IMG/VR virus record: IMGVR_UViG_3300048592_001391
Coordinates: 1,513-65,512 of that record
Direction: 5' to 3' (one strand)
Source: a virus
Lineage: Duplodnaviria; Caudoviricetes
Length of the DNA stretch: 64,000 nucleotides
The position numbers and the translations under genes were made by a program. The notes beneath the pieces were generated by a model. That model was not told where the DNA came from and did no database searches. It saw nothing but the letters and a program-made list of their open reading frames with translations. This document shows, one piece after another, positions 1 through 64,000 of this stretch (the stretch's first letter is position 1; each line of letters opens with the position of its first letter).

Positions 1-410
1 TCTGAGATTTCCCGCTTTTCCGGGCGGATGGTGGAGAGGGGGATGTAGCCATGTGTGGAACGGTGGATGCTGCTCGATGTCCGCTCAGCCTTGCGGCGGT
101 GAAACCCGTCCACAATCCGATTGATGTCCCCATCAGGGAACGCCACAATGGGCATGGTGTACCCATCTTCTTCAATCGAGCGGATCAACAGGCGCATCTC
201 AGGCGGGGCAACGGCATTGGGGTTGTACTCGTTGCCTTCCACTTCCTCAGATCGCCGCCACTGTACAAAGTCTACCGGGTGATGCTTGAGCGGACTAACT
301 TCGTGCAAGATTCCCCGCGCCCGGTTCAGGGCGTCAATCTTCTCATCTGTATCTGGCAGTGCCGCAATCAGTGCGTCCAGTTCGTTGGCTTTGGTCTCTA
401 TCTCATTCAT
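1..410 (-). CDS. ibrB: IbrB/YbdM-like ParB/Srx-domain protein (3' end outside window; absent from ORF track)
   Basis: Manual translation from ATG 410: MNEIETKANELD...HPVDFVQW...NEYNPNAVAPPEMRLLIRSIEEDGYTMPIV...IVDGFHRR; begins 1 nt after the ibrA stop. Confidence 0.85.
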   Translation of the reverse strand, partial: MNEIETKANELDALIAALPDTDEKIDALNRARGILHEVSPLKHHPVDFVQWRRSEEVEGNEYNPNAVAPPEMRLLIRSIEEDGYTMPIVAFPDGDINRIVDGFHRRKAERTSSSIHRSTHGYIPLSTIRPEKREIS

Positions 411-411
411 C

Positions 412-1740
412 CTATAAATCCTTGTATTTCTTCATGGCATCATGCCGCAATTGCTTCTCGTAGTTGGTCATCCCGTATCCCATGTACCTTGCACTGTAGT
501 CGTTCTTGAGGATGGTGATGCACATACGCTTGTATGATGGCAGGTTAACGAAGTGCTTGCTATCAATCTCATCTGGGTACTCCGCAAAGCGAACCAGAAT
601 GATGTCATCCCGGTTCTGGTAAATCTTGCCGGGCGGCTTGCCCAATACCTCGAACTCATAGCCAGATGCGGCAATGTCTGGCAGGGAATCCACATGAATG
701 GTGGCCCCCTTCTCTAACCAGACGCGGAACGTAGACTTGAACTTCTCGCGGAACATCTTACCGATGTAGGGCGGCAGGGTAGACAGCAGGAACTCGCAGT
801 AGCTTTTCCATGTGTGCCCAGGGGGAAGGGAGATGGATTTGTAGCCCATCGCCTTCGTTGCCCCGTAGATAGCTCCAAAATTCGCGCCATTGACACGGCC
901 GACAAGCCTGGCCCAGATGTCCGGTTCAATTGCCTTGTGCAGCCCCAAGCTGGCTACTCCCTCATCAATGAAGGCACTAGCAACACGCATGTCCCCCAGC
1001 TCCACACCGGCCTGATAGTACAGGTCATAGAGCTTGTTGTAGTCGTAGTCGTTCTTGGCATTGGCTATCCAGATGTCCTCGGTCGCCCAATCGTACAAGG
1101 GGTAGCCACTGTAGCGATTCTTGCCCATGACCGTGATCCACTTTCGCCCCTGGTACATATTTACCTTGCTATCACTGGCAACGGCCCGCCAACGGTTCAG
1201 GCTTTCCTGCGCCCGAATGCCCAGCAGCCCAATCGTGCGGGTGGCTCCGTAACGGCCGTGAATCCACTCGTTGAATTTGAGGTCGAAGTCCGTGTCCTCG
1301 ATCCCATGATAGTAGAAGTCAAACTCGTGGTTGTCCTTTGTAATGACTTCCAGCCCATTGCCCAACACAGGGTAATCACGTACCCATATCTCCCGCTCTT
1401 CCTCGTTCCAGGGCAACCAGTAGTTGCGGTAGATGGAGACCCCACACTTGGTCTTGTAGGTCATGCACACCCAATAGAGGTCAATCAGGTCGGCGTTGGC
1501 CTCGACCATCCGCCGAATGAAGTCCTCGGTGTACTGGTAGCTCCCTTCGTAATCCATGTAGTAGACGCCTATCCGCTTCGTGATGTTGTGCTGGCGCATG
1601 TACTGGAAGATCATGTTCAGCAGCACCCCGCTATCCTTGCCCCCGGAGAACGACACATAGATGTTGTCGAACTCCTCAAAGATAAACTCGATGCGCTCCA
1701 TTGCCGCGTCGTAGACGTTAATGTCTCTGTAGGTCTTCAT
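412..1740 (-). CDS. ibrA: IbrA/YbdN-like PAPS-reductase-family protein (DUF3440)
   Basis: VSFSGGKDSG PP-loop, GIRAQESLNR, YPLYDW, YNKLYDLYYQAGV, RVNGANFG, PSYKRMCITILKND. Confidence 0.88.
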   Translation of the reverse strand: MKTYRDINVYDAAMERIEFIFEEFDNIYVSFSGGKDSGVLLNMIFQYMRQHNITKRIGVYYMDYEGSYQYTEDFIRRMVEANADLIDLYWVCMTYKTKCGVSIYRNYWLPWNEEEREIWVRDYPVLGNGLEVITKDNHEFDFYYHGIEDTDFDLKFNEWIHGRYGATRTIGLLGIRAQESLNRWRAVASDSKVNMYQGRKWITVMGKNRYSGYPLYDWATEDIWIANAKNDYDYNKLYDLYYQAGVELGDMRVASAFIDEGVASLGLHKAIEPDIWARLVGRVNGANFGAIYGATKAMGYKSISLPPGHTWKSYCEFLLSTLPPYIGKMFREKFKSTFRVWLEKGATIHVDSLPDIAASGYEFEVLGKPPGKIYQNRDDIILVRFAEYPDEIDSKHFVNLPSYKRMCITILKNDYSARYMGYGMTNYEKQLRHDAMKKYKDL

Positions 1741-3149
1741 AGTAGTTTGGCTATCTCCTTCTTCAAGTCACTCCCCTTCTTCGCCTTCAGCGCATCCACC
1801 TTCCGCCGAAAGTCAGCCACCGCGTCCCCCTTGCTGGCCAGGCTCTTGGCTATCCGATCCTCAATCCCGCAAATGGCCCACACATCTACATAGGTCGGCC
1901 GTCGCGCTTGCCCGATCCGGTGAATCCTGTCTTCGGCCTGTAGCCGATGGGCGTACTTAAACTCGTTCTCGTAGAAGATACTGTATGCCGCTTCGGTCAA
2001 TGTCAGCCCATGCCCCCCGGTTGCCATTGAAGCAATCAGGAAACGGCCGTCACCCCGCCACCGTGCCAACTCGCTGCTCCGCTCTGCCTCACTCAAATCA
2101 CCGTAATACTGCGCCACCGACGAACTGCCGTACACCCCCGCCAATGCCTCGGTAAGCTGCTGAATCGAATAGCGGTATTTGCACCAGATAATCACCTTCT
2201 CGGCCTGGGGCAGGGACGCAACAACGCTCAGTGTTTGGTCTATACGGCCGTGCGGGAACTCCAGCATACGGCCGTTGCGGTTCCAGAAGCCGCTCACAAT
2301 CTGCTGTAACGCGCCGAATAGCTGGAAGATCACGTAGCTATCCACCTCATCCATGCAGTTAAGCAATATCTCTTCTTTGGCCTGTTCATAGGCATCCCGT
2401 TGCCGGTCAGTCAGGTGGAAGTAACGCGAATCGTATAGTTTCGGCGGCAGGTTCAGCCCTGCCTCTTCCTTCGTCACCTGATACACATAGGGCTGCATCT
2501 TCGCCGCCAACCACGCCGTATTGTGCGCCCGGATCACCATGCCGGGGTACTTCTCGCTGTACTCCAGATGGTTGGCGGCAAAGCTATAGAATGAGTTGTA
2601 TCCCAGTATTTTCGGGCTGAGGAAGCGCATTTGGGCATACAGGTCTTGGACGCCCTGGCTCATGGGTGTGCCAGTCAGCGCCAACCTATACCGGGCTTGC
2701 TCACTGTATTGGGTGATGCGGTGGGTACGCATGGCGTTATGGCCTTTGATGTAGCTGCTCTCGTCCACAATGACGGCCGTTTCGCTGGTCGTCAGTTCGT
2801 GCGCAGCCAGAGCCACCCGGTTGCTGCTGCTCATGCTCTCGATGCCCACAATGTGCCAGAAGGCCGACCGGTTCAGGTTACGGCCGTTGGTCTTATCGTC
2901 GAAGATGTTGACGGCCGTAGCTGGGCAGTCCGTATGTTTGGCAATCTCCGCCGCCCATGTCTCCTTGAGAGACACTGGGCAGTACACAATCACCCGGCGA
3001 ATCCGCCGTTGCCGCCGCGCCATTAGCTCAATGGCTACTCGCGTCTTGCCCGTTCCCATGTCCATGAACAAGCCACCCACGCGAGTAGGCAATACCTTCT
3101 CGACGGCGGGTATCTGGTGGGGAAGGAGGCTAGTCGTTGTCTGCCACAT
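1737..3149 (-). CDS. SNF2-family (SF2) helicase/ATPase
   Basis: MDMGTGKT, IVDESSYIK, LTGTP, GGHGLTL, QAEDRIHRIGQ. Confidence 0.93.
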   Translation of the reverse strand: MWQTTTSLLPHQIPAVEKVLPTRVGGLFMDMGTGKTRVAIELMARRQRRIRRVIVYCPVSLKETWAAEIAKHTDCPATAVNIFDDKTNGRNLNRSAFWHIVGIESMSSSNRVALAAHELTTSETAVIVDESSYIKGHNAMRTHRITQYSEQARYRLALTGTPMSQGVQDLYAQMRFLSPKILGYNSFYSFAANHLEYSEKYPGMVIRAHNTAWLAAKMQPYVYQVTKEEAGLNLPPKLYDSRYFHLTDRQRDAYEQAKEEILLNCMDEVDSYVIFQLFGALQQIVSGFWNRNGRMLEFPHGRIDQTLSVVASLPQAEKVIIWCKYRYSIQQLTEALAGVYGSSSVAQYYGDLSEAERSSELARWRGDGRFLIASMATGGHGLTLTEAAYSIFYENEFKYAHRLQAEDRIHRIGQARRPTYVDVWAICGIEDRIAKSLASKGDAVADFRRKVDALKAKKGSDLKKEIAKLL

Positions 3150-5533: not shown

Positions 5534-5570
5534 TTTGACGGCCGTACCCACCACAGGTACGGCCGTCAAA
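5534..5570. repeat. Perfect 15-bp inverted repeat made of two ACGGCCGT units
   Basis: TTTGACGGCCGTACC-caccaca-GGTACGGCCGTCAAA, abutting the SD of 4783..5523. Confidence 0.85.
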
Positions 5571-29499: not shown

Positions 29500-29739
29500 T
29501 TAGCTCTTTCTCTTGGGCTGTGCTTTGCGCGGGGGTGTTTCCACCACACGCACTACGCTATCTGGCACGGCCGTAGACTGAGCGGATTGCTCCTCCTCAG
29601 TCAACGGCCGTATCCAGCCAGCATTGAGCATAAATCTGGCACGGTCACGGCGCGGAATATGCACCACCTGACCCGCCGTAACCGTTCGGTCATTGCGGGC
29701 ATAGCGGCTCAGTGCGATATATCCAGTGCCGTTAGACAT
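29500..29739 (-). CDS. small post-capsid hypothetical protein
   Basis: TAATG-coupled to capsid gene. Confidence 0.55.
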   Translation of the reverse strand: MSNGTGYIALSRYARNDRTVTAGQVVHIPRRDRARFMLNAGWIRPLTEEEQSAQSTAVPDSVVRVVETPPRKAQPKRKS

Positions 29740-30701
29740 TAGGCCACCGCCGAAGCGAAAAAGTAACCCAGGTCAGAGCCAATCAGCTTGTAGTCAAAGG
29801 CAACTTCACCCTCGACCCGATCCACACCCAGGTGGGACAGCGGGAACCGCTTGATCCCAATGGTCGCGCCCATGCCATCGGACACACCGCGCCACAGGAA
29901 GGTGTAGCCAGCAGACACAGAGAGCAGAGACGGCCGGGGGGCGGAGTAGCACAGCAAGGCGTTCTTGCCATGCACGAAGCTGTACGCGCCCGTCGCGCCT
30001 TCTACGTTGGTGGCATAGACGCTCTTGGCAACCAGCACCCGTTCCACATCCAGAATGCCAGCCATCATGTCGGCCGTCACGCTGTCGGAACTGGTGTACT
30101 TGAACCGATCCACGAAGTCGGGGTGGTTCTTCAGGCTCTTGAACACGTCATAGCCCAAGACCAGCGTGTTGGGCAGATAGCCGGTCGAGGCCAGTACGGC
30201 CGCTTTCCCGGTCTCCACATCGGCAATAGGGGTGCTGGTGGCGTAGGTACTCCACAGGGTGAAGTCGGTGCCGCCCGTTACGTCCGTGCCCCAAATGCTG
30301 GTCGTGAAGTAGTTGGTAGCCCAGGCGCGTTCTTTGCGGACCAACAGGCGTTGGGTCACGAACTCCGTGGCTTCGCTGTCCAGGTTGATCCCGTCATCGG
30401 CATTGGCGCGTGTGTACTTGTCAATGTCTTTGTGGATCGCGTTGGGGATACAGGCATAGGTGGTCGTACTGGTGATGTTGTACCCGGAGCCAGCGGATTC
30501 GGTGCCGGAAGCGCGGGGCTTGGCCTCATCGCGGAACCAGTCGTTTTTGGTGTAGGTGCGGATGATGTCGGTCTGTTTGTCCACCGGAATGGCGGGAAAC
30601 ACCTTGTCCGCAATGAAATTGTCATGATTTTGGATGTACGCAATCGAGAGGTTGGTTAACGGCCGATTGACATGCACATCACTCGAAGTAGGTTGAGCCA
30701 T
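29739..30701 (-). CDS. major capsid protein (HK97 fold, phage_cap_E-like)
   Basis: LTNLSIAYIQ..FIADKVFPAIPV, PNTLVLG, SAGYTF; strong SD. Confidence 0.9.
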   Translation of the reverse strand: MAQPTSSDVHVNRPLTNLSIAYIQNHDNFIADKVFPAIPVDKQTDIIRTYTKNDWFRDEAKPRASGTESAGSGYNITSTTTYACIPNAIHKDIDKYTRANADDGINLDSEATEFVTQRLLVRKERAWATNYFTTSIWGTDVTGGTDFTLWSTYATSTPIADVETGKAAVLASTGYLPNTLVLGYDVFKSLKNHPDFVDRFKYTSSDSVTADMMAGILDVERVLVAKSVYATNVEGATGAYSFVHGKNALLCYSAPRPSLLSVSAGYTFLWRGVSDGMGATIGIKRFPLSHLGVDRVEGEVAFDYKLIGSDLGYFFASAVA

Positions 30702-33824: not shown

Positions 33825-34754
33825 CTAATCCTCAAACACCAACCCAACCGCGCAGCGGCAGTTGGGGCCAGAGGGCGGCGTTAACACCCGCTTGCCCTCA
33901 CCTGTCAGGAACGGTTCCTTCATCCGGCGCATCTGCCCGGTCATCGGCTTGCACCGCTTCTGGCTCAAGCGGTCATCGTGCGTCACCAGCCATTTGCGCC
34001 AGATGGTAGACTCCAACACATAGCCGTTGTCAATCGCATCTTCCCAAATCAACTGCTGCCCCATGCTGCTGGCACGAATGGTCTCCGTGCGGGCAATCGT
34101 CTCACCCCGATACAGCAGCAGCCGTTTGGCGTACTCCTTCGCCATGTCCTCGGCCAAATCCTTCTGTGTCCCTTTGGCAATCAGGCGGGCGCGGTAGTTC
34201 TGCACGGCAATGGCATGGCGCGGCAACAGCCCTACCGCTTCGGCCATGTACTTGGCCGCATCAGCGGGGGGAATCCCGTCCATGAACATCCGGTAGAGCG
34301 TGAAGCGCAGGGCTTCGACGGTTTGGGCGTTAACGGCCGTCACCAGTTCGGCGCTGTTGGTAGCCAGCCATGTCACGGCGCGGGGGTTGAGCAGATCGAA
34401 GGAGAGAGAGCCAGCCGCTTGCGGAATGAACTGCACCTGGCTGTTACCCGCCGCAGCCATCGCCTCGCGTAGCAGGTCAAATGAGGCGTTGGTTATTTTC
34501 TCGTCAAGGATATTCAGGTTCAGGGCATCGGCCACCAGTCGCATGTTCCGTTCCCGCACTGCCCGCGCCAGTTGGGTCAGGCTGGCTTCGCTCCCCAACT
34601 CCCCCATGACATTGGCAAACGAGGCGGCAAGTTGCGGCACGATCTCTTCCTGTACCTGCCGCAGCGCCGCCCACTGCTCATTCACCGGCGCGGCAAACTG
34701 CAACGGCCGTACCACAGGCACACGGGGAATGGGTCGGCGCGTCACCACAAACAT
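33825..34754 (-). CDS. Mu gpF/SPP1 gp7-like minor head protein
   Basis: ETIARTETIRA, KWLVTHDDR, PPSGPNCRC. Confidence 0.88.
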   Translation of the reverse strand: MFVVTRRPIPRVPVVRPLQFAAPVNEQWAALRQVQEEIVPQLAASFANVMGELGSEASLTQLARAVRERNMRLVADALNLNILDEKITNASFDLLREAMAAAGNSQVQFIPQAAGSLSFDLLNPRAVTWLATNSAELVTAVNAQTVEALRFTLYRMFMDGIPPADAAKYMAEAVGLLPRHAIAVQNYRARLIAKGTQKDLAEDMAKEYAKRLLLYRGETIARTETIRASSMGQQLIWEDAIDNGYVLESTIWRKWLVTHDDRLSQKRCKPMTGQMRRMKEPFLTGEGKRVLTPPSGPNCRCAVGLVFED

Positions 34755-36070
34755 TAGTCTCTCTCCGTCACAGGCAAGCCAGCACGTTGCAGAAAGTACG
34801 CTTCGAGGTCGTCGTTCGGGAAGAGCATCGCCCCGGCTCCCGCCAACTGCCCAATCAGTGCGCCCAACTGCCCCAAGTCCACCTGGTCAATGTCGTCATG
34901 CACCAGCATGGGCGCTGACTTCACCGACAGGTTGTTGGCCTTGAGCAAGCTGGGGATTGCGTGTTGGTTCATCACCCCCAACGGCCGTCCATCGTCACTC
35001 ACGCCGCCAATGATGTCCATCCACGCGCCCAACGCCGTTGTAAAAAGCTCGGTCTTGTTGGACGACAGGGCATAGCTCCCTACCCCGTCATGCCCCAATG
35101 TCAGGAAGTCCGCCAACATCGCCATGGCGATCCGCTGGTCGTAGTAGCGCAGGGTTTCCAGAATATCGAACTGGCGACTTCCCCCGCTGCTGAGCAGCTT
35201 CAGGTCATACAACGGCCGTCCGCTCTCATCGTAGACCATCGGGAAGACAATCCCTTCCTGCTCATCGCGCCGAATGGATGTCACGATGTCCTTGACGGCC
35301 GTCAGCACCGCCTGTTCGGCGGGGCCAGCGTTGGCGTCAAGTATCTCCGCTGGCACAAAGGCCACTGGTAGCCCGGCCAAGTCTCGCTCCACGCCAATCC
35401 CCATGATGTTCTCGAAGTTCGTCTTGAAGTACCATGGGCGATACGCCGACCGTAACAGGCTGCGTCCTTCCGGGTTGCCCTTGTTGCTCGTTGTGCGGAA
35501 GAGTATGCACTTGTTGATCCCGCTGCTGTCGGTCAGGTACAACGGCCGTCTCGGGCCACCATTCGGGTCACTCTGCCACATCCCCTGCACATTGCCGTGT
35601 TCGTCAAATATCCACTCGTCGAGCGTGTTCTGTCCCCGTAAGGCGAACTTGCGCCACCCGATACGGCCGTCGGAGTATTTGCTTCGACGGCTGGTGTCCT
35701 TCTGGGTCGGGCCATTGCGCGTCTTGTAGACAATCTCCAAGTACGCCCAGCCCCACGGGATCATGGTCAGGATTTCGCTAATGATGGTTGTGAAGTCTCG
35801 GCTCATGTCGTGCAAGCACTCGCCTACAAACTCCGCCGCCGCCACGTCCTGGGCATCGTCGGATCCAGCCACCACCCGCCATCCCACCTGCCCAATCAGC
35901 AGATTGATTGCCAACAGCACAGCGCCAACCACCGGATCATTCTCGGTCATCTGCGCCACAACCTTGCTCCACCGCGTCCCCTTCAGGTTGCGGTTGAACT
36001 CTTCCTCGATTGTCCCCCCGGAGCGTTGCAAGCCGCTCACGCCCATCTCCACCATCGGTACTTTTGCCAT
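34754..36070 (-). CDS. portal protein (Mu gp29/DUF935-like)
   Basis: GNPEGRSLLRSAYRPWYFK, GIGVERDLAGLPV, GSYALS; follows terminase. Confidence 0.9.
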   Translation of the reverse strand: MAKVPMVEMGVSGLQRSGGTIEEEFNRNLKGTRWSKVVAQMTENDPVVGAVLLAINLLIGQVGWRVVAGSDDAQDVAAAEFVGECLHDMSRDFTTIISEILTMIPWGWAYLEIVYKTRNGPTQKDTSRRSKYSDGRIGWRKFALRGQNTLDEWIFDEHGNVQGMWQSDPNGGPRRPLYLTDSSGINKCILFRTTSNKGNPEGRSLLRSAYRPWYFKTNFENIMGIGVERDLAGLPVAFVPAEILDANAGPAEQAVLTAVKDIVTSIRRDEQEGIVFPMVYDESGRPLYDLKLLSSGGSRQFDILETLRYYDQRIAMAMLADFLTLGHDGVGSYALSSNKTELFTTALGAWMDIIGGVSDDGRPLGVMNQHAIPSLLKANNLSVKSAPMLVHDDIDQVDLGQLGALIGQLAGAGAMLFPNDDLEAYFLQRAGLPVTERD

Positions 36071-36071
36071 C

Positions 36072-37421
36072 TTAATTACCCCACTTGCTTATTTTGCCCA
36101 AACCAGTGGGCGCAATATGCGGAACCTCGGGTTTGGTATCAACCATTAACTCTGTGAATCCCCACACCATGGCGTCCAACCGGTTCGGGGATTCTTCGCC
36201 CGGAACCCAGGTGCAAAGCTCGTCTTCCAGCTTCGCCAATGACCCAACCATATGCGCCCGTCCCTGCTCATACAGAGCGCCCACCGGTTCGGCGCGGGTG
36301 TATTTGCCCCGTGTTGCCCGTACCAACTTCACCGGCAGCTTGCTGCTATCGGGCATGGTGTGGATGGTATGGCGCACCATCTCGCCCCCTTGGTTGGCCT
36401 CGGCCACAATCAGGTTAGCCCGCCATTTGCTGTAAGCGGCTACGGCCGTAGCTGCCCATGTTGCCGGTGAAGCACCTGCCTCTGGTGTCACATCGTCCAG
36501 CACATAGCCATTGAGTACCCCGCCCACCTTCGCTACGCCCACGACCACAATGCCCGTTGTGCCGGTCGTCGCTGCCGGGTCAATCGCCACGACAATCTTT
36601 TCCAGCGCCGGTACATGCAGGACACGGGTCTCATCCAACATGGCGCGGTTCCACAAGGCTCCCGGCGTGTCGTCGAGGATGTGCGCCAATAGCTCTTGCC
36701 GCCCAAGGCGTGTGCCTTCGTACTTGCGGATAATCTGCTCGAAGAAGCTGGCCGCAAGATTGGCGCGGTTCTCGTAGGTGGTTCCGTGTGTCACGACACA
36801 GTGCGGATCAGATACCAGACCACGAATGACGGGGGTCGGGCGGGGGGTGGTGGCAATGGCGCATTGGGGGTTCTCACCCAGCCGCAAGCCGAACTGCAAC
36901 ATTGACCACGCATCTTCGTAGCGCCATGCCGCCAGCTCATCTACGGCCGCCCAATGGAACTGAGGGCCGCGCATACTGTCGGGCTTCTCGGCGGAGAAGA
37001 GGGTAGCCACTGTGCCATTAGGCCATGTCAGGCGACGCTTGGAGGCTACATAGTCGGGCATGAAGTCGGGCGGAGAACAGGCCAATATGCCGCTCTCCCC
37101 TTCAATCAGCACATCGCGCACATCACCGGCCGTCTGCCCCACAATTGCGCCCCGGCTCCCCGGCATCTCCCGCGCCTTGCGGATCACCCACTCGGAAATA
37201 CTGCGCGTCTTGCCGAATCCGCGCCCGGCCAGCAGCAGCCAGTATGTCCAGTTACCGGGCGGCGCAATCTGTTTCGGCCGTGCCCAGAAATCCCACCAGT
37301 AAGGCAGGTGTTCCAACTCCCGTTTGCTCAGGGCACGAAAGAAGTCATCGGCCAAGCCGGATACTTCCAGTCTCAGCGCCTGGCTCATCTCGGTTTCGGT
37401 GTCTACGGCCGTATCTACCAT
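36072..37421 (-). CDS. terminase large subunit
   Basis: AGRGFGKTR, RGPQFHWAAVDELAAW, TTPRP, VAIDPA, EANQGG, SPNRLDA. Confidence 0.96.
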   Translation of the reverse strand: MVDTAVDTETEMSQALRLEVSGLADDFFRALSKRELEHLPYWWDFWARPKQIAPPGNWTYWLLLAGRGFGKTRSISEWVIRKAREMPGSRGAIVGQTAGDVRDVLIEGESGILACSPPDFMPDYVASKRRLTWPNGTVATLFSAEKPDSMRGPQFHWAAVDELAAWRYEDAWSMLQFGLRLGENPQCAIATTPRPTPVIRGLVSDPHCVVTHGTTYENRANLAASFFEQIIRKYEGTRLGRQELLAHILDDTPGALWNRAMLDETRVLHVPALEKIVVAIDPAATTGTTGIVVVGVAKVGGVLNGYVLDDVTPEAGASPATWAATAVAAYSKWRANLIVAEANQGGEMVRHTIHTMPDSSKLPVKLVRATRGKYTRAEPVGALYEQGRAHMVGSLAKLEDELCTWVPGEESPNRLDAMVWGFTELMVDTKPEVPHIAPTGLGKISKWGN

Positions 37422-46237: not shown

Positions 46238-46489
46238 CTATGTGAATCGCGGCACTCCGCCGCAATCCAAAATCGCGCCAATAATTGCATTGCCCACATG
46301 AGCCTTGCCAAAATCACAACCACGCCACGGCTCTGTGTCGCGGATGTGGGCTGAAAGAATATCTTGCAAGACCGCAGCATCTTCCGCCCTTGCCTCGCGT
46401 CGCGCATTACACCGAAAGCATTGTCCGTTCTCATCCAGCGTATACCCACGCATCCCGCAAGATGGGCACTGTGAAATTGCTCCTAGCAT
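46238..46489 (-). CDS. hypothetical Cys-rich protein
   Basis: CPSCG...CFRC. Confidence 0.45.
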   Translation of the reverse strand: MLGAISQCPSCGMRGYTLDENGQCFRCNARREARAEDAAVLQDILSAHIRDTEPWRGCDFGKAHVGNAIIGAILDCGGVPRFT

Positions 46490-47139
46490 TAGTACATCCT
46501 CTGATACACCGGCCCGAACCGGCCAAACACCCGGCTGAACCGATGAACATTCGCCCCCAGATAAACCACCACACTGCCCTTCGTTGCCCCACGCACTGGC
46601 TCCAGCGTATCAGGCGACAGGTAGTTCACCCGCTTCCGCATCAGGCAGATCGGGTATGAGGCTATCCAGTGAAACCAACTCTCTGACGGGCTGGCAAAGG
46701 TGATCGCCATTGCCTGCGCCATGTCGCCGCGCTGGTAGCTCATGTCCAGCTTCTGCAACCATTCGCCAATGCCGGGCAGGTCTACGGCCGTATGCCACCC
46801 CCGCTCCACACAAATCTTCTTCTTGCACCCCGGCTTGCATCCCTGCTCAGTACGGCCGAACGGCGCATTCAACCAGATACGGCCGTTCACCTTCGCCCAC
46901 GATTCATCCAGCCCCCCGCCGCCCTGGGTCATGAAGGGCAAGCCGTCAAACTCACCACACGGAACCAACTCCGGGCGCGTGAAGTACCGCGCCGCCTTGA
47001 CAATGCTGTTGGCCTTCTCGCTGCTGGCCGGGTCAAGGTCAATGCCGCCCATGACCTCATGCACTGCTTCCATGATCTCATGCGGCGTGTACCACTCGGT
47101 CGAACCGCTGGTCTGGTTGATCAGTTGGTGGTTATTCAT
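46489..47139 (-). CDS. phage DNA N6-adenine methyltransferase (lambda/T1 Dam-like)
   Basis: EWYTP, IDLDPAS, WLNAPFG (NPPY variant), VVYLG. Confidence 0.8.
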   Translation of the reverse strand: MNNHQLINQTSGSTEWYTPHEIMEAVHEVMGGIDLDPASSEKANSIVKAARYFTRPELVPCGEFDGLPFMTQGGGGLDESWAKVNGRIWLNAPFGRTEQGCKPGCKKKICVERGWHTAVDLPGIGEWLQKLDMSYQRGDMAQAMAITFASPSESWFHWIASYPICLMRKRVNYLSPDTLEPVRGATKGSVVVYLGANVHRFSRVFGRFGPVYQRMY

Positions 47140-47613: not shown

Positions 47614-48092
47614 TCAACACCTCCTAGCTGCCATGTCAGCAGCGCATACGCCCACGGCGGCGCTTCCTCGTGGGTCTCGGCGTCAACCAGAAAGTCCACC
47701 GTCAGGAACCAGCTATACACAAACCCGCTGGGCGTGTACACACGGCCGTATCGCGGCACCACGGCCGTGCCACTGTCGCGGCACTCCCACACGCCTGCCC
47801 AATCCACCACCAATACCTGGCCGTACATGCCGGGCGGACAAGCCGCGTAACGGCCGTAGCCCTCATCTACCGGCGTCCCGTCGCCCAGATAGTCGGCGGT
47901 TCCAGCCAGACAATTGATCGGCGACACATCGCACAGCGCCGGGTTGTACCAACTGGCGCGAATGGGCAGATCGTCCGGGGCAATCACGCACTCGACGCCC
48001 GAACTGCTGTAGACACAGTGGCCCACAGGGGTAGCTTCGGCGTAGCACCACTGCCCCACCACCCCGATGATGAACAGGCAAACATGAATCAT
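47610..48092 (-). CDS. secreted 3D/RlpA-like double-psi barrel protein
   Basis: Hydrophobic N-terminus, ASWYNP, YAACPP, WECRDSG. Confidence 0.5.
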   Translation of the reverse strand: MIHVCLFIIGVVGQWCYAEATPVGHCVYSSSGVECVIAPDDLPIRASWYNPALCDVSPINCLAGTADYLGDGTPVDEGYGRYAACPPGMYGQVLVVDWAGVWECRDSGTAVVPRYGRVYTPSGFVYSWFLTVDFLVDAETHEEAPPWAYALLTWQLGGVE

Positions 48093-48961
48093 GCGAACAG
48101 GCTCCTCTGGGCGATACGGCCGTTGGCCGCTACCGTGCGCGGGGAAAGCCACAACGATTCCGTTGCCATCCGCTTGCCGCCATTCACCCGCGCTTCCCGG
48201 TCTACCCGCTGCCACCCATGCGCCTCGTACAATGCTTCGTACAGGTCGCTTGGGTAGCCAGAGAGCAGCACATACCCTTCCAGCCCGCGCAGCACTTCCG
48301 CCAGCTTGATGTGCGCCAATACGTCCGCATCCCCTTCCCGCTTGGCAAACTCGACAGGGTAAGCGGAGCGGGTGTTTGCCTTGCGGGTGGAGTACAGATA
48401 CGGCGGGTCAACGTAATGCACGGCCGTATCGGCGTCATAGCGGGGCAAAAACTCCAGCGCGTCCATGTTCTCAATGGCGACACCGCGCAAGCGTTCGGTG
48501 ATCTCAGGCAGATGGTCTACTCGGGCAAAGAGTTTGGCGGCAGATGTCATGGGCGCGGAGTTGTTACGGCCGGTGCTGATGAACGTCTGGCGACGGAAGG
48601 CAGGGAGTGTGTCGAACGGCCGTATCGCCGCCCAACAGCGGAAGTAAAAGCGACGGGCGGCTTCGATTGGGTCATCGGTAGGCTGGGTGCATAAGGCGAA
48701 CTCATCCGCCGCCCAGGGGGTCAGGCGAATGCGCTCGGCCAGTTCGGCGCCGTTATCCCGCTGCACCCGGAACAGGTTGACCACATCGCCGCTGGCGTCG
48801 TTGATCGTCTCCATGCGAAAGCGAGACGGATTGGAGAGCAAGACGGCCGCACTGCCCATGAATGCCTCTGTGTAGGAGTGCACCCCCTCACGCGGAATGT
48901 GGGACAGAATCCACGATGCCAGTGACCACTTGCCGCCCACATAGTCAATGTACTTGGTCAT
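48089..48961 (-). CDS. DNA adenine methyltransferase (D12/Dam class)
   Basis: YVGGKW, EAFMGSAAV, ETINDA, HYVDPPY, LSGY. Confidence 0.92.
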   Translation of the reverse strand: MTKYIDYVGGKWSLASWILSHIPREGVHSYTEAFMGSAAVLLSNPSRFRMETINDASGDVVNLFRVQRDNGAELAERIRLTPWAADEFALCTQPTDDPIEAARRFYFRCWAAIRPFDTLPAFRRQTFISTGRNNSAPMTSAAKLFARVDHLPEITERLRGVAIENMDALEFLPRYDADTAVHYVDPPYLYSTRKANTRSAYPVEFAKREGDADVLAHIKLAEVLRGLEGYVLLSGYPSDLYEALYEAHGWQRVDREARVNGGKRMATESLWLSPRTVAANGRIAQRSLFA

Positions 48962-50581: not shown

Positions 50582-50610
50582 AGTTTACCACATGCGTAAT
50601 ACCATTGCAA
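50582..50610 (-). promoter_or_regulatory. sigma70 promoter overlapped by an SOS-box-like site
   Basis: TTGCAA-17-TAAACT with extended TG; GAAC-AATA-GTTT at 50575-50586; second box AGAACAAACGTTTG at 50488-50501. Confidence 0.7.
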
Positions 50611-50637
50611 ACTATTGCCTCGATTAAATCAGGCAGG

Positions 50638-53004: not shown

Positions 53005-53366
53005 AGTAGTTCCTCCAATAGTTCGCTGGCCCACTCCACATTGGCATGGGCCGCAAGGTGACGTTGATAATTACTGCCGGTCACGGCAATCTCCTTGCCG
53101 CACTCAGGGCAGGAAGCAATCCGGCTAATGCGTTGATACGGCCGTCCGGTGCGCTCATTGCACAGGGCAGAGGTACGCAGGGCATCCTCCCGCCGCTGCT
53201 GCACCAGGCGTTCCAAATCCACTCGGGCAACAGCCTTGTAGCCAAATAGCTCATGGATGGTCACGCCGTAAGCCGCCACCGTACTCCACACAGCATTGGC
53301 GGAGACACCCAAGGCGCGGGCTACTTCTCCACTTGTTGCATAATCTGCAATAGTTGAGCTAGGCAT
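53001..53366 (-). CDS. HTH plus C2H2-like zinc finger protein
   Basis: SGEVARALGVS, CPECGK...HLAAH. Confidence 0.6.
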   Translation of the reverse strand: MPSSTIADYATSGEVARALGVSANAVWSTVAAYGVTIHELFGYKAVARVDLERLVQQRREDALRTSALCNERTGRPYQRISRIASCPECGKEIAVTGSNYQRHLAAHANVEWASELLEELL

Positions 53367-54399
53367 AAGCAACCTCCGCTTTGTAGACGGGCGCAGGTTC
53401 GCCGAACAATCCCAACTGCTTGCCAGCGGCCGGGCCGTCAAAGCTGTAACGCGGCGCTTGCTTGATTGCTTCGGTTAGCTGCTCGACAACGGCCGTATCG
53501 CCGTTCTTGTGCGCTTCCCGGACTGGCTCGTATACCGGCTTCCAGTTGTCGGGCACACGGGCGGCAAAGTCGGCGTCGTTCATCATCAGGATGCAATCAA
53601 CCCAGGCTCCATTTAGCCCGTACAGCATCAGGTTCACCTGCGCCATACGCACACAGGTAAAATCAATGTCTTGCCCAAAGAACTGGATAAGGCCGGAGTG
53701 AATCGCCCATGAGGGATAGCAAGCGGCCGTCGCCAAAAGCATCGCGCCGCTGCCCACTGCCGGGTCGTAGACGGCAATTGGATCAATCGCGCCTGATTCC
53801 ATCAGGGGAGCCAGCAGGGTCATCATGGCAATGTACTGCGCTTGCGGGTCGGTCTGGCCTAGCGCCCTACCCAACCGCGCATAGAGCATCATCTGATCCA
53901 ATGGCTCCATGCGGCGGGCTACCCGGTAGATGCGCTCCAGGGCGTCAGCACGGCCGTCTAGCACCGTCATCTCGGCCATCATGCGGCAAATGTGCATGGG
54001 CGTGAAGAACTGCCCGGCGCGGCTGTTGGCGTAGGCGAAGTCCATGTAGACTGCGCCCAACACATCCTCGTAGCCGGTAGACGCCGCTTCCATCAGGATT
54101 GCCGCCGCCCGAAAGAACACTTGCAGGGTGTCGCTGCTGTTACGGCCGTTCCACCCATAAGTCGTGTCCAGCCGCGTCAGGTTCGCCACATCCTCGGGGT
54201 CAGGGGTGAACTCCTGCCCCACCAACTCACACGCCGTCTTCCGCTCGGTCTCCTTGAGCAAGAAGTAGGTGAAGGACAGCCAGTCCTCAAAGAGCGTATG
54301 CGGCTGTTGGGCATAGCACAGTGGTTCCAGCAGCCGGATGATCCGCTCGGCGTAGAATCGGGCTGGCTGCTTGCCATTGATGGTTACAATTTCGTCCAT
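53359..54399 (-). CDS. N-6 DNA methylase (HsdM-like), lacking the catalytic NPPF motif
   Basis: AGQFFTP, YDPAVGSGAML, GQDIDFTCVRMAQVNL. Confidence 0.75.
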   Translation of the reverse strand: MDEIVTINGKQPARFYAERIIRLLEPLCYAQQPHTLFEDWLSFTYFLLKETERKTACELVGQEFTPDPEDVANLTRLDTTYGWNGRNSSDTLQVFFRAAAILMEAASTGYEDVLGAVYMDFAYANSRAGQFFTPMHICRMMAEMTVLDGRADALERIYRVARRMEPLDQMMLYARLGRALGQTDPQAQYIAMMTLLAPLMESGAIDPIAVYDPAVGSGAMLLATAACYPSWAIHSGLIQFFGQDIDFTCVRMAQVNLMLYGLNGAWVDCILMMNDADFAARVPDNWKPVYEPVREAHKNGDTAVVEQLTEAIKQAPRYSFDGPAAGKQLGLFGEPAPVYKAEVAYA

Positions 54400-54457
54400 A
54401 AGTACCTCCTTGGTTGGCTTGCGGAACGACCCGGAACGGCCGTTCCGCAACAAAAAA

Positions 54458-55042: not shown

Positions 55043-55284
55043 GATACACCGCCAAAGAGAGATGGTTGAGGCGCAGCCTCGACCGGCTTGGGGCAGGTGC
55101 AGCCCCACTTCATCGTGCGTACCTGCTCATTGGGCACGGTGCGAATGGTCAGGCCAGCAACCGCACACTCCACAATCTCGCGCTTGGCATCCCGGTCAAT
55201 GACGGCCGTGATGAACTGCATCCCGTCGCAGGTTGGGCATGTGGCGACTATTGCTGTTTTGTCCAAGTGGGTAGGCTTACTCAT
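55039..55284 (-). CDS. hypothetical Cys-containing protein
   Basis: ATGA overlaps; ends QPSLFGGVS. Confidence 0.5.
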   Translation of the reverse strand: MSKPTHLDKTAIVATCPTCDGMQFITAVIDRDAKREIVECAVAGLTIRTVPNEQVRTMKWGCTCPKPVEAAPQPSLFGGVS

Positions 55285-55763
55285 TGTCCCGCTCCCGTCG
55301 CACAGAACGACGACCGCACAGCGTACCATTGGTACTGCTGGGCATATCCCTGATACTCCGAATGAGGCACTTCAATCTCGGTCGCAGATGTCAGGTACGG
55401 CATGATGCCTTCCCGATACAGTTTGCCCGCCATGAGATGTACCTTCCCCAACTTCTTATCACCCATGATCCACAAGGCGTCTTCCAGACTGTTCCACACC
55501 CGCCGCCCCCATGCTGGCAGGTCTCGCTTCTTTAGCTCCTGCTCATAGGGCGCCACTGTGTCAATGCTGGTCAGCAGGCCATGTTTGGCCGACAGGACAA
55601 AGATTTGGCGGTCTGGCAGCTTGAGGCAGTGCCGCGCATAGCGCAACTGAGCGGTAAACAATGGGCCGGTGTATAGTTCCAGCGCCGGGATACGCTCGTA
55701 CAAGTCCGGTGGGCTTTTCTTGCTCTTGCTACAGGCAATGAGCGCAATGTCTACTTGGTTCAT
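55281..55763 (-). CDS. DUF6884-like protein
   Basis: LIACSKSK, PALELYTGPLF, VLSAKHGL, APYEQ, AGKLY. Confidence 0.75.
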   Translation of the reverse strand: MNQVDIALIACSKSKKSPPDLYERIPALELYTGPLFTAQLRYARHCLKLPDRQIFVLSAKHGLLTSIDTVAPYEQELKKRDLPAWGRRVWNSLEDALWIMGDKKLGKVHLMAGKLYREGIMPYLTSATEIEVPHSEYQGYAQQYQWYAVRSSFCATGAGQ

Positions 55764-62481: not shown

Positions 62482-62801
62482 TCCGCACCGTTCCCTTTCC
62501 ACCACCCATACAAGAAATTCCCACCACACAGCCCACACAGCAGAAGAAACGGCCACAGATTCACCGCCGAGGCAAACTCATCATGCACCGCCACCAGCGC
62601 GGCAAAGAACAGGCCGATGTACAGCATCCCTATCCCACCAAACAAAAGAATCTCATCAGCCGTCTCCGCCAATCTCGCCCACATCCACAGACTGAACAAC
62701 ACCATCAGCACGGCCGTAAACACCCACACGGCCGTACCAGCCAGCAGCGCCACCCCGCTCCACACAAACAACGAAATCAAAGCCAACACAGTAGGTCTCA
62801 T
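62478..62801 (-). CDS. multi-TM membrane protein
   Basis: About four hydrophobic helices. Confidence 0.6.
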   Translation of the reverse strand: MRPTVLALISLFVWSGVALLAGTAVWVFTAVLMVLFSLWMWARLAETADEILLFGGIGMLYIGLFFAALVAVHDEFASAVNLWPFLLLCGLCGGNFLYGWWKGNGAE

Positions 62802-62836
62802 CTCACACTCCTTAACCAACAACTATCAACCAACAA

Positions 62837-64000
62837 CTATCTCACCAACAAAGGTTGCACCACCACGGCCGTACCGCCATGAATCGGAATCACCCGGTCA
62901 ATGGGCGTATTGGCGGCAATCTCCGTCCCGTCCCACTTCTGCGGCCACATATTCAGCGCCCACATCTCCCGAATCCGCGCCTCTTCCTCGGCATTGATCA
63001 AGTCCACTCGGGCGCGGCGCTGGATGTCCTGCACCCGCGCCAACCCCCACGCCCTGGCCTCCATCGTCAACGGCCCCATGCGCTGGCCGTTCGATGCGTA
63101 ACGGCCGTCAGACTGCATCTCGATCTCCGCCTTGCGTACCCGGTTGTGCGGCTTCTGCAACTCGCGGAAGATGGCCTTCAGTTCCAGCAACGGCCGTAGG
63201 TGCTCCCACTCAGGAATCTGCACCACGTTCTCCAGTGCCGGATCGCGGTCTACCAGATTACACCCGATACATCCTGTGCGAACCTCACCATCCCCATACA
63301 CGGCCGCAATCCCGGTCACTTCCGGGTAGCCATGACGCTTGTTCTCGAAGTAGAGCCAGTCATACACATGGCACACTCGCCAATGGAGCAGTGGCGCCAA
63401 TGTATCACCGGCGCTGGCCGGGGGTTTGGCCTCGAACCACCCTTGCCCACACTCGCCCGAATCCTTCGAGCAGGACAGGGCAATCCGCTGGTCACGCACC
63501 ACACTCTCGCCGAGGCGCACCCCGTTGATGAGCAAATACTTCTCCCCGTTCTGCTGGCGGATTTCGTTCAACCGGCTTTCCATGGGCACAATCTTCAAGT
63601 TGCCTGTGCACCAGCGGAACTGATTGTGTGGCGGGGGCACACCGTAGCCCAGCATGTACACGTAAAACCGCTTGTCCAGTTCTGGCAGAACCACCTGCAC
63701 ATTGAACCCGTCCGCCCGGAACCGATCCAGCAGCTTGACGGCCGTCGCATGGAGCGGCGGGTACTCTTGCCGGGTATCGGCATAGAGAATGGTCAGGGTT
63801 TCCGGCGCGGCAACCTGGCCCGTCTTGATAGCCCAGGCCACAAATGTGGCCGTCGCGCTGCTGTCCTTGCCACCAGAGTACGTCACCGCCCAATGGCGAT
63901 AGCGGTCGCCGTAGGCGCGAAGGCTGTCCAGGCTCATCTCAATTGCGCCTTTCAGGTTCAGGCGCTGGTCATCGAATAGGGATAATTGTTGTCTGCTCAT
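62837..64000 (-). CDS. DndC-like PAPS-reductase-family protein
   Basis: YSGGKDSS, YADTRQE, GYGVPPP...FRWCTGNLK, GVRLGES, RTGCIGC. Confidence 0.85.
   Translation of the reverse strand: MSRQQLSLFDDQRLNLKGAIEMSLDSLRAYGDRYRHWAVTYSGGKDSSATATFVAWAIKTGQVAAPETLTILYADTRQEYPPLHATAVKLLDRFRADGFNVQVVLPELDKRFYVYMLGYGVPPPHNQFRWCTGNLKIVPMESRLNEIRQQNGEKYLLINGVRLGESVVRDQRIALSCSKDSGECGQGWFEAKPPASAGDTLAPLLHWRVCHVYDWLYFENKRHGYPEVTGIAAVYGDGEVRTGCIGCNLVDRDPALENVVQIPEWEHLRPLLELKAIFRELQKPHNRVRKAEIEMQSDGRYASNGQRMGPLTMEARAWGLARVQDIQRRARVDLINAEEEARIREMWALNMWPQKWDGTEIAANTPIDRVIPIHGGTAVVVQPLLVR

What the first reader, a model, noticed from the sequence alone, without database searches (positions are those of the whole stretch)
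1..64000. Genome-wide highly iterated palindrome ACGGCCGT (HIP1-like) that rewrites protein sequences
Seen: ACGGCCGT recurs at a few copies per kb (7 in 1-3000 and 8 in 7617-9000 by eye), versus about 2 expected in the whole window from base composition. It occurs in all three frames, giving TAV, [NYDH]GR and RP[YLFS] peptides in capsid, portal, tape measure, MTases and others, and it also occurs between genes. The pressure is therefore on DNA, not protein. Many one-off variants (TCGGCCGT, TGGCCGT) are present. Established: cyanobacterial HIP1 (GCGATCGC) behaves this way and is associated with cognate methyltransferases. Phages normally avoid palindromes. Inference: a methylation/repair-driven or protein-binding HIP system with a CGGCCG core, probably shared with the host, implying long residence as a temperate phage.
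Basis: partly seen in the sequence, partly recalled or inferred. Interest (0 to 1): 0.85.

Follow-up and report, generated by a model that had tools for sequence, protein, structure and literature searches.

The report
Host-shared iterated palindrome saturating a phage
This 65-kb phage carries the 8-letter DNA palindrome ACGGCCGT about every 290 bases, the same word that fills the genomes of its likely hosts (filamentous Chloroflexota), while it has purged almost every other palindrome, so it is a phage-borne counterpart of the unexplained cyanobacterial HIP1 repeat.

Summary
Observation confirmed. ACGGCCGT occurs 218 times in the window (227 in the 65,512-bp virus record) against about 2 expected. 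It lies in all three frames and between genes. A synonymous-codon null keeps only 22 of 209 genic copies.

The word is shared with the hosts. 94 of 166 genomes of one Chloroflexota order (Promineifilales) hold at least 1,000 copies, with a maximum of 2.2 per kb. The phage (3.5 per kb) exceeds them all. Six sister genomes use TGCCGGCA instead.

Copies arise by substitution, often changing amino acids. They are kept at orthologous positions in related phages (7 of 11, against a 10% background). The phage otherwise avoids palindromes strongly (median observed/expected 0.11 for hexamers).

No methyltransferase or Vsr family tracks the word.

Each copy sits at a strand-symmetric GC-skew flip. The flip is strong in hosts and five-fold weaker in phages. 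It is also present at TGCCGGCA and at cyanobacterial HIP1. It fits a nick or cut followed by 5'-3' excision at the word.

The scan had already noted this word on other DNA: 36 findings in at least 35 genomes.

The parts
1..64000 (.). Genome-wide set of 218 ACGGCCGT copies (227 in the whole record). Spacing is Poisson-like and no module is free of copies.
   Evidence: index of dispersion 0.83 in 1-kb bins. The largest gap is 1,749 nt against a mean of 1,719 under random placement. Pairs 30 nt or less apart number 22 against 22.4 expected.
1737..3149 (-). SNF2 helicase gene with 6 copies. It is the best-documented case of the word being written at amino-acid cost.
   Evidence: Pfam. Against 119 homologues, word-encoded residues equal the consensus in 8 of 18 positions, against 348 of 452 elsewhere. 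The orthologue in the HIP-rich 100-kb phage G316 has 7 copies. Three are shared at the same codons, and all 7 lineage-specific sites differ in amino acids.
36072..37421 (-). Large terminase gene with 2 copies (at 36442 and 37405).
   Evidence: Pfam. At the 36442 copy the Thr of Thr-Ala-Val is found in 0 of 79 relatives. 79 of 80 related viral loci have 2 copies or fewer. Only L186 (74% aa identity) is rich in the word. A gapless 758-nt alignment with L186 shows that the sites differ by substitution only.
34754..36070 (-). Mu-type portal gene with 5 copies. Some sit on pre-existing conserved peptides and some on novel residues.
   Evidence: Pfam. With 119 homologues, word-encoded residues equal the consensus in 5 of 9 positions, against 253 of 413 elsewhere.
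29739..30701 (-). It has no copy in 963 nt, one of the few depleted genes.
   Evidence: 0 copies, Poisson P=0.036. The tape-measure gene 23363-26152 has 4 copies in 2,790 nt (P=0.036). One search gave no Pfam hit for this ORF.
5538..5566 (.). Example of an intergenic pair of copies. Other pairs are at 6736/6754 and 62710/62728.
   Evidence: Positions. Close pairs are not commoner than random placement gives.
48089..48961 (-). Phage D12-class N6-adenine methyltransferase. No link to the word is shown.
   Evidence: PF02086, E 2e-20. D12-class enzymes occur in 35 of 40 HIP-rich and 28 of 40 HIP-poor order genomes.
46489..47139 (-). Phage Dam-type adenine methyltransferase. No link to the word is shown.
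   Evidence: PF05869, E 4e-8.
53359..54453 (-). Phage protein with a partial N6_Mtase match. No link to the word is shown.
   Evidence: PF02384, E 1e-13; 58 residues matched.
62837..64000 (-). PAPS-reductase-like gene with 4 copies.
   Evidence: Pfam. Its 78%-identical orthologue on metagenome contig L431 (1.8 copies per kb) shares 2 of 3 aligned sites. The 13 other relatives (71% identity or less) have 0-1 copy.

Best explanation
ACGGCCGT is a highly iterated palindrome of the host lineage, written into this phage as into any DNA that replicates in those cells.

Shown:
- The word is genome-wide in about half of the order Promineifilales and in several unrelated phages of that niche.
- It is absent from this phage's relatives elsewhere.
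- It arises by point substitution without insertions or deletions, partly on peptides that were already compatible and partly by changing residues at tolerant positions.
- Once present it is kept at orthologous positions.
- It is the only palindrome this phage does not avoid.

Inferred mechanism: a symmetric (dimeric) host factor reads the full octamer and nicks or cuts there. 5'-3' excision and resynthesis then run outward on each strand. Repair biased towards the full word creates and maintains copies. The same process leaves the G-rich 5' flank on each strand. Phage DNA meets this machinery in every infection. Because the word is not restricted and phage proteins tolerate change, the phage settles at an even higher density than the host.
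For: - DNA-level enrichment.
- Host sharing: all 32 word-rich loci of the genome scan are Chloroflexota. Five host genomes hold 10,077-15,492 copies against 53-209 of the reversed word. 94 of 166 order genomes hold at least 1,000 copies, against 2 of 151 in the class sample.
- Hosts and phage rank the frames alike: 307/180/89 and 105/68/29 in hosts, 89/81/39 in the phage.
- Not inherited with the phage lineage: 79 of 80 terminase relatives and 13 of 14 PAPS-reductase relatives lack the word.
- Substitution and amino-acid cost.
- Maintenance: 7 of 11 window sites are shared in 3.6 kb of orthologous alignment, where 10.2% of all 8-nt windows are identical (P=3e-5).
- Symmetric reader: the G at -3 mirrors the C at +3 even though all phage genes lie on one strand.
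- Polar scar: the GC-skew flip is D=0.56 (z 29) and 0.52 (z 18) in hosts. It decays over about 40 nt. It is equal in both gene orientations, in all frames and outside ORFs. It is absent at ten control palindromes, at one-letter variants and at the bare core.
- The flip has the same sign in the phage (D=0.117, 0 of 2000 random sets reach it) and in five other viral loci (0.114).
- The flip has the same sign at TGCCGGCA (0.24) and at HIP1, both in viral loci (0.15, n=949) and in a cyanobacterial MAG (0.19, controls flat).
Against: - No nuclease, methylase or binding protein is identified.
- Vsr occurs in 5 of 40 word-rich genomes and 6 of 40 word-poor ones. C5 methylase occurs in 17 of 40 and 14 of 40.
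- Non-ORF DNA of the hosts is poorer in the word than ORF DNA (1.10 against 1.70 per kb and 1.58 against 2.00). A pure mutational drive checked only by protein constraint would predict the opposite.
- The phage has more copies but a five-fold weaker scar than the hosts. Word gain and scar are therefore not in a fixed ratio.
- The matching AT skew is weak and is seen in only one of two hosts.
- The flank skew could be part of an extended binding preference rather than a mutational scar.
- For HIP1, Xu et al. 2018 (PMC5861425; abstract and passages read) argue from the same kind of site conservation for selection rather than biased repair.
- A density above all 166 host genomes fits positive selection in the phage at least as well.
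Confidence: 0.5

Rival explanations
1. Selected mimicry. The word is a binding or recognition site for a host factor. Candidates are a nucleoid or condensin-type protein, or a Chi-like signal that stops a nuclease and promotes recombination. Replicons without it fare badly. The phage is under positive selection to carry it densely. The flank skew is then part of the extended site.
For: - The phage density (3.47 per kb) exceeds all 166 host genomes, whose maximum is 2.18. Four of five other word-rich viral records also exceed that maximum: 2.25-3.74 per kb, with one at 1.71.
- Sites are conserved far above background.
- The word is denser in host ORFs than outside them.
- Spacing is even (dispersion 0.83).
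- Abstracts listed (bioRxiv 10.1101/2024.09.10.611283; PMC13756078, passages read) report that HIP1 raises transformation in a homology- and methylation-dependent way.
Against: - No reader is known.
- A skew footprint of about 40 nt on each side is long for a binding site.
- The footprint is five-fold weaker in phages, although their sites would need to be equally functional.
- One-letter variants carry no footprint at all.
- Two to three sites per kb is far more than Chi-type signals need. That comparison is from my own knowledge.
Confidence: 0.3
2. Methyltransferase-linked ratchet, as proposed for HIP1 by Elhai in 2015. A CGGCCG- or GGCC-specific methylase marks the site, and a methyl-directed or Vsr-type mismatch repair converts near-matches into the word.
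For: - The bias of one-letter variants to the outer letters matches Elhai's HIP1 pattern. Source: PMC4390886, abstract and passages read.
- Alternate words occur in sister lineages, as in cyanobacteria.
- The polarity of the flank skew fits nick-directed 5'-3' patch repair.
- There are weak trends for N4/N6 methylases (33 of 40 against 25 of 40, P=0.08) and D12 methylases (35 of 40 against 28 of 40, P=0.10).
- Two earlier scan notes claim a candidate methylase. I could not see their details.
Against: - C5 methylase is absent from 23 of 40 word-rich genomes, including several of the richest (G003, G197, G217).
- Vsr is absent from 35 of 40.
- The complete chromosome G001 has a single N4/N6 methylase, and it sits beside a HindIII-type endonuclease.
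- A C5 methylase of G001 (the one tested of its two, L397) and the C5 methylase of the TGCCGGCA genome G169 match M.HhaI over their whole length, so they probably read GCGC.
- Four top genomes share no orthologous N4/N6 methylase. Only G003 and G217 pair, at 80% identity; the others are at 25-30%.
- The phage has no cytosine methylase.
- Many of these genomes are incomplete MAGs, so absences are soft.
Confidence: 0.12
3. Amelioration of a temperate phage. The record is a provirus that sat in a word-rich chromosome long enough to take on its composition.
For: - The word covers every module evenly.
- The phage encodes a ParB-type protein.
- The window's own SNF2 and portal proteins are on record on 6 contigs. 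The longest is 84,775 bp, longer than this record. It might be a parent contig with host flanks.
Against: - None of the 27 ORFs of 250 aa or more has an integrase or recombinase domain.
- 1 of 167 order genomes has a terminase relative, at 56% identity.
- There is no DNA match in the three genomes with the closest flank signature.
- Passive amelioration should approach the host density, not exceed it by 1.6-fold.
- A complete 100-kb phage with direct terminal repeats also carries the word at 2.25 per kb.
Confidence: 0.15
4. DNA-uptake signal. The word is a transformation uptake sequence, as recently proposed for HIP1, and spreads by uptake bias.
For: PMC13756078 (abstract and passages read) proposes this for HIP1. 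Its placement in tolerant codons resembles what is known of uptake sequences; that comparison is from my own knowledge.
Against: - Uptake bias gives no reason for phages, including a complete phage with terminal repeats, to exceed their hosts in density.
- It does not predict the polar flank skew.
- Competence in these bacteria was not examined here.
Confidence: 0.04

Closest known systems
HIP1 (GCGATCGC) and the alternate highly iterated palindromes of cyanobacteria (Elhai 2015, PMC4390886; Xu et al. 2018, PMC5861425)
   Same: - It is a GC-rich palindromic octamer, tens of times over expectation (observed/expected about 79 here; 15-300 reported for HIP1).
- It lies in all frames and in non-coding DNA.
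- It spreads by substitution.
- One-letter variants are biased to the outer letters.
- It has palindromic extensions.
- Related lineages have replacement words.
- Sites are conserved above background.
- The GC-skew flip has the same sign at both words.
   Different: - The word and the phylum differ.
- The density of 3,466 per Mb is above the 300-2,700 per Mb quoted for HIP1.
- The carrier here is a phage.
- No GATC lies inside the word.
- No cognate methylase was found.
- The flank skew is about three times stronger in Promineifilales than at HIP1.
- 'Phage' occurs 0 times in the three HIP papers I searched. 'Skew' occurs 0 times in two of them.
Very-short-patch repair with Dcm (CCWGG in E. 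coli; from my own knowledge)
   Same: It is a site-specific nick followed by a short 5'-3' patch that restores a palindromic word. This is the polarity inferred from the flank skew.
   Different: - The Vsr family is missing from 35 of 40 word-rich genomes.
- The enrichment is orders of magnitude larger than VSP repair is known to cause.
Restriction-site (palindrome) avoidance in phages
   Same: The phage shows it strongly. Among 48 hexamer palindromes with at least 5 expected copies, the median observed/expected is 0.11 and 15 have no copy.
   Different: ACGGCCGT behaves in the opposite way. Its CGGCCG core is the least avoided hexamer palindrome (65 observed against 53.7 expected outside full copies).
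DNA uptake sequences (Neisseria, Pasteurellaceae) and Chi sites (from my own knowledge)
   Same: They are short words kept genome-wide at the DNA level and tolerated inside genes.
   Different: - Those words are not palindromic and are orientation-dependent.
- They are several-fold rarer.
- Nothing here links the word to uptake or to RecBCD-type enzymes.

Membership tests
Highly iterated palindromes (HIP, sensu Elhai 2015 / Xu 2018) | Palindromic GC-rich octamer far above a Markov expectation | tested here: met
   227 copies against 2.9 by second-order Markov. The next palindromic 8-mer has 3 copies.
Highly iterated palindromes (HIP, sensu Elhai 2015 / Xu 2018) | Present in all three reading frames and in non-coding DNA | tested here: met
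   Phage: 89/81/39 by frame plus 18 outside ORFs. Hosts: 307/180/89 plus 67, and 105/68/29 plus 30.
Highly iterated palindromes (HIP, sensu Elhai 2015 / Xu 2018) | Spreads by nucleotide substitution, not insertion | tested here: met
   A gapless 758-nt alignment and a codon alignment of SNF2 orthologues. Only 5 orthologous blocks were examined.
Highly iterated palindromes (HIP, sensu Elhai 2015 / Xu 2018) | One-letter deviations biased to the first and last letters | tested here: met
   59 of 74 in the phage. 219 of 330 in the G001 sample and 67 of 84 in G003.
Highly iterated palindromes (HIP, sensu Elhai 2015 / Xu 2018) | Sites conserved between related genomes above background | tested here: met
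   7 of 11 sites shared against a 10.2% background, P=3e-5.
Highly iterated palindromes (HIP, sensu Elhai 2015 / Xu 2018) | Replacement by an alternate palindrome in some related lineages | tested here: met
   TGCCGGCA is at 0.5 per kb or more in 6 of 166 order genomes and never occurs together with ACGGCCGT.
Highly iterated palindromes (HIP, sensu Elhai 2015 / Xu 2018) | A methyltransferase specific for the word or its core is present whenever the word is frequent | tested here: inconclusive
   No family-level association: C5 17/40 against 14/40, N4/N6 33/40 against 25/40, D12 35/40 against 28/40. The C5 enzymes I examined are HhaI-like. Specificities cannot be read from sequence, and many genomes are incomplete.
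Highly iterated palindromes (HIP, sensu Elhai 2015 / Xu 2018) | Quasi-periodic spacing at 10-90 kb | not tested
   A 65-kb genome is too short for this. Host chromosomes were only sampled.
HIP1 proper | The word GCGATCGC in a cyanobacterial genome | tested here: not met
   The word differs. The hosts are Chloroflexota.
Dcm/Vsr-type very-short-patch repair | Vsr endonuclease with a C5 methylase in genomes that carry the word | tested here: not met
   Vsr is in 5 of 40 word-rich genomes. None was found among the phage ORFs scanned.
DNA uptake sequences | Preferential uptake of DNA carrying the word by a competence system | not testable with these tools
Competence genes were not examined.

The most novel reading that the evidence does not exclude
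All highly iterated palindromes mark sites where a symmetric, still unknown enzyme repeatedly nicks or cuts the chromosome and 5'-3' excision and resynthesis follow. Three words in two phyla were tested here. On this reading a genome-wide, word-directed repair or recombination system writes its own recognition site into every resident replicon. Phages of such hosts must carry the word as a password, at densities above the host's own, while purging all other palindromes.
Probability: 0.3. Interest if true: 0.9.

Novelty: new variant of a known kind. Interest (0 to 1): 0.8.

Why it matters
HIP1 has gone unexplained for three decades and has been treated as a cyanobacterial peculiarity. This finding adds several things.

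- A second word in a second phylum behaves the same way.
- A sister word has replaced it in some lineages.
- Phages carry the word more densely than any sampled host, while avoiding every other palindrome. Uptake-bias models do not predict this, and it limits passive-amelioration models.
- The strand-symmetric GC-skew flip is shared by ACGGCCGT, TGCCGGCA and HIP1. It gives a concrete, testable hint that DNA is nicked or cut and resected at these words.
- The switch between the two words within one order offers a natural experiment for finding the responsible gene by phylogenetic profiling.
- The word and its 10-letter extension also serve as a sharp host-assignment marker for uncultured phages of wastewater Chloroflexota.

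Tried and rejected
Checks that led nowhere or argued against a reading:

- **Protein or codon artefact:** rejected.
- **Inheritance within the phage lineage:** rejected.
- **Close pairs of copies forming hairpins more often than chance:** not seen. 22 pairs lie 30 nt or less apart, against 22.4 expected.
- **Word-free islands that would mark recent acquisitions:** none beyond chance.
- **C5 methylase, Vsr, N4/N6 and D12 families as correlates:** none significant.
- **A shared N4/N6 methylase orthologue among four top genomes:** not found.
- **G001's N4/N6 methylase:** it belongs to a HindIII-type pair.
- **C5 methylases of G001 and G169:** they are HhaI-like.
- **Prophage search with the terminase in all 167 order genomes:** one distant hit.
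- **DNA search of window 26001-46000 in G270-G272:** nothing. Only 20 kb of the 64 kb was searched, and only 3 genomes.
- **Metagenome scan for the parent contig:** no identical record was returned.
- **Pooled test of amino-acid cost over three proteins:** a trend only (15 of 30 against 834 of 1,284, P=0.12). It is clear in SNF2 alone.

Literature:
- Searches for the word itself or for HIPs with Chloroflexi, Ardenticatenia or Promineofilum gave primers or nothing relevant.
- One search was wasted because the truncated term matched 'prominent'.
- Supplements of the HIP papers were closed. They may hold flank or phage data that I could not see.

Not done: periodicity, competence genes, and the remaining small ORFs of the phage.

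Full report
**What the window is.** The window is bases 1513-65512 of a single-contig virus record of 65,512 bp. A crude longest-ORF call puts 95 ORFs on the minus strand, covering 93.6%. Pfam identifies:
- a T4-type large terminase, a Mu-type portal, Mu F, a protease/scaffold with a 2H phosphoesterase domain, a tape-measure protein and a GH25 tail lysin
- an SNF2 helicase, an FtsK-like ATPase, two PAPS-reductase-like proteins, DUF6884, dCTP deaminase, a RecU-like resolvase and ParB
- three adenine-type methyltransferases

None of the 27 ORFs of 250 aa or more has an integrase or recombinase domain.

**The observation.** ACGGCCGT occurs 218 times in the window. 100 dinucleotide shuffles gave a mean of 1.81 and a maximum of 5. 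The record holds 227 copies.
- The copies lie in frames 0/1/2 as 89/81/39, and 18 lie outside ORFs.
- Shuffling synonymous codons within genes leaves 22.5 of the 209 genic copies (maximum 38). Shuffling codon order leaves 2.45 (maximum 7). The second-order Markov expectation is 2.9.
- So the word is imposed on DNA. The nine-fold gap between the two codon nulls shows that the protein sequences themselves have become rich in compatible peptides.
- Copies are spread like a Poisson process, slightly more evenly (dispersion 0.83). The largest gap is no bigger than chance gives, and close pairs are not in excess.
- Of 292 CGGCCG cores, 227 carry both outer letters, 59 carry one and 6 carry none. 59 of 74 one-letter variants differ at an outer letter.

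**The contrast with other palindromes.** With the word masked, 48 hexamer palindromes have at least 5 expected copies.
- Their median observed/expected is 0.11.
- 15 have no copy.
- 37 lie below 0.5, against 3.1% of non-palindromic hexamers.
- CGGCCG is the least avoided, with 65 observed against 53.7 expected.

Host samples show milder avoidance, with medians of 0.60 and 0.63. The phage therefore follows the usual rule of avoiding palindromes very strictly and makes one exception.

**Whose word it is.**
- A triple-word scan of viral contigs found four further word-rich contigs.
- The same scan of one genome per species was cut at 120 loci. It gave 32 loci with at least 1.4 copies per kb, and all 32 are titled Chloroflexota: Ardenticatenaceae, Ca. 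Leptovillus, Ca. Leptofilum, Anaerolineae and others.
- Five such genomes hold 10,077-15,492 copies, against 53-209 of the reversed word.
- In a class-wide sample, 2 of 151 genomes exceed 1,000 copies.
- In the order of Ca. Leptofilum (Promineifilales by NCBI), 94 of 166 genomes do. 66 reach 1 per kb and the maximum is 2.18 per kb (G183 left out).
- Six genomes of the order instead carry TGCCGGCA at 0.5-1.8 per kb, and no genome carries both.
- The hosts rank the frames as the phage does.

The phage's 3.47 per kb exceeds every host genome. Other word-rich viral records have 2.53, 2.25 (complete, with terminal repeats), 1.71, 2.29 and 3.74 per kb.

The phage prefers the extension TACGGCCGTA (31 of 227, 13.7%). 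Among hosts only G270, G271 and G272 come near, at 10.9%, 11.1% and 9.3%. By my reading, the others are at about 5% or less. G271 is an Ardenticatenaceae MAG. This is a soft pointer to the host clade. A DNA search there found nothing.

**How copies arise and persist.**
- 79 of 80 viral loci with a terminase relative (42-55% identity) have 2 copies or fewer. Only the closest, L186 (74%), is rich in the word.
- 13 of 14 relatives of the terminal PAPS-reductase-like gene lack the word. The closest (78%) has it.
- Orthologous alignments are free of insertions or deletions at the sites.
- In 3.6 kb of alignment with other word-rich contigs, 7 of the window's 11 sites are shared, while 10.2% of all 8-nt windows are identical (P=3e-5). 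4 window sites and 4 sites in the other contigs are lineage-specific.
- In the SNF2 pair, all seven lineage-specific sites involve amino-acid differences.
- Against 119 homologues, SNF2 residues encoded by the word equal the consensus in 8 of 18 positions, against 348 of 452 elsewhere. Typically a variable residue between two conserved anchors has been changed.
- Some portal sites sit on conserved peptides and others are novel: 5 of 9 against 253 of 413.
- Pooled with the terminase the figures are 15 of 30 against 834 of 1,284, P=0.12.
- In the terminase, one Thr occurs in 0 of 79 relatives.

So copies are gained both for free and at amino-acid cost, and they are then kept.

**Methylation and repair genes.** In 80 order genomes (40 rich in the word, 40 poor):

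| Family | Word-rich | Word-poor |
|---|---|---|
| C5 methylase | 17 | 14 |
| Vsr | 5 | 6 |
| N4/N6 methylase | 33 | 25 |
| D12 methylase | 35 | 28 |

None of these differences is significant.
- The complete chromosome G001 has one N4/N6 methylase, next to a HindIII-type endonuclease.
- The one of its two C5 methylases that I tested, and the orphan methylase-Vsr pair of the TGCCGGCA genome G169, match M.HhaI end to end.
- Four top genomes share no N4/N6 orthologue.

MAG incompleteness softens the absences. Even so, the expected cognate methylase is not in evidence.

**A footprint.** The lead came from earlier scan notes that mention a strand-polar footprint, and I measured the flanks.
- In the hosts, the 5' flank of every copy is G-rich and the 3' flank is C-rich on the same strand. 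At 3-20 nt the skews are +0.29 and -0.26 (D=0.555, z 29, n=643) in G001, and D=0.521 (z 18) in G003. The skew fades by 40-60 nt.
- It is the same for genes on either strand, for each frame, and outside ORFs.
- It is absent at ten control palindromes, at one-letter variants and at the bare core.
- The phage shows the same sign at one fifth of the size (D=0.117; 0 of 2,000 random sets reach it). Five other viral loci give 0.114.
- The same sign appears at TGCCGGCA in G169 (0.242), at HIP1 in 41 HIP1-rich viral loci (0.150, n=949), and at HIP1 in a cyanobacterial MAG (0.189, z 5.5, five controls flat).
- 'Skew' does not occur in Elhai 2015 or Xu 2018.

The polarity is what repeated single-stranded exposure of the strand whose 3' end points at the site would give. 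That is a nick or break at the word followed by 5'-3' excision. This is inference. An extended binding preference is the alternative.

**Reading.** I take the following as shown:
- The word is a host-lineage HIP.
- It acts on DNA.
- It is shared by unrelated phages of that niche.
- It is gained by substitution and then maintained.

I take as most likely, but unproven, that a symmetric host enzyme processes DNA at the word and that biased repair there writes and keeps it. Selected mimicry by the phage is the main rival and may act together with such a drive. The phage's excess over its hosts favours mimicry. The weak phage footprint fits young or rapidly turning-over sites.

The methylase ratchet, a temperate lifestyle and uptake signals have little support here.

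**Context.** Viral contigs with HIP1 at 2-5 per kb also exist: 23 loci at 2 per kb or more. Phages sharing their hosts' HIP therefore seems general. I found no statement of this in the HIP papers I could search.

The scan had already reported this word in Chloroflexota and their phages on other DNA: 36 findings in at least 35 genomes.

Noticed in passing
Order genomes G169, G268, G186, G269, G167, G223 (and weakly G229); loci L240-L246: A sister palindrome, TGCCGGCA, replaces ACGGCCGT in 6 of 166 Promineifilales genomes at 0.9-1.8 per kb (observed/expected 58 in G169). The two are mutually exclusive. A few viral contigs also carry it (L270 at 2.2 per kb).
   Followed up: partly
Host loci L138-L157 and L247-L252; window-wide in the phage: Every full copy sits at a strand-symmetric GC-skew flip (G-rich 5' flank on each strand, about 40 nt). 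It is independent of gene strand and frame and absent at controls. It is five-fold weaker in phages. It is also present at TGCCGGCA and at HIP1.
   Followed up: yes
Whole window: Extreme avoidance of other palindromes. 15 of 48 hexamer palindromes with at least 5 expected copies are absent, and the median observed/expected is 0.11. GATC (0.54) and CTAG (0.43) are also low.
   Followed up: partly
Loci L295-L392 (IMG/VR contigs): Many viral contigs carry cyanobacterial HIP1 at 2-5 copies per kb: 23 loci at 2 per kb or more and 41 at 1 per kb or more. Some may be host fragments or proviruses misfiled as viral.
   Followed up: partly
G316 (100-kb viral record), L400/L401; protein P0010: The SNF2 orthologue of a related word-rich phage is interrupted by an insert of about 350 aa with a LAGLIDADG-type Pfam domain (PF14528). 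This is presumably an intein, and it is absent from the window's gene.
   Followed up: no
Proteins P0001 and P0121 (window 1737-3149 and 34754-36070): The window's own SNF2 and portal proteins are on record on 6 contigs. The longest is 84,775 bp, longer than this 65,512-bp record. It is possibly a parent contig with flanks.
   Followed up: no
L399 (G169:C2:3158001-3164000): An orphan HhaI-like C5 methylase sits directly followed by a Vsr endonuclease among housekeeping genes. No endonuclease gene is nearby.
   Followed up: partly
Window 412-1740, 55281-57055, 41760-42347, 46489-54453, 62837-64000: A dense set of DNA-modification-type genes: two PAPS-reductase-like proteins (one with DUF3440), DUF6884 next to a 431-aa ORF without a Pfam hit, dCTP deaminase, and three adenine methylases. 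This fits a phage under heavy restriction pressure.
   Followed up: partly
Host flanks, loci L138-L157 and L247-L252: In G001 and G003 the word extends to a wider palindromic consensus: about 50% G at -4/-3 and 40-59% A at -2/-1, mirrored on the other side. Some genomes fix the 10-letter form almost completely (L040 and L055, 96-97% A at -1).
   Followed up: partly
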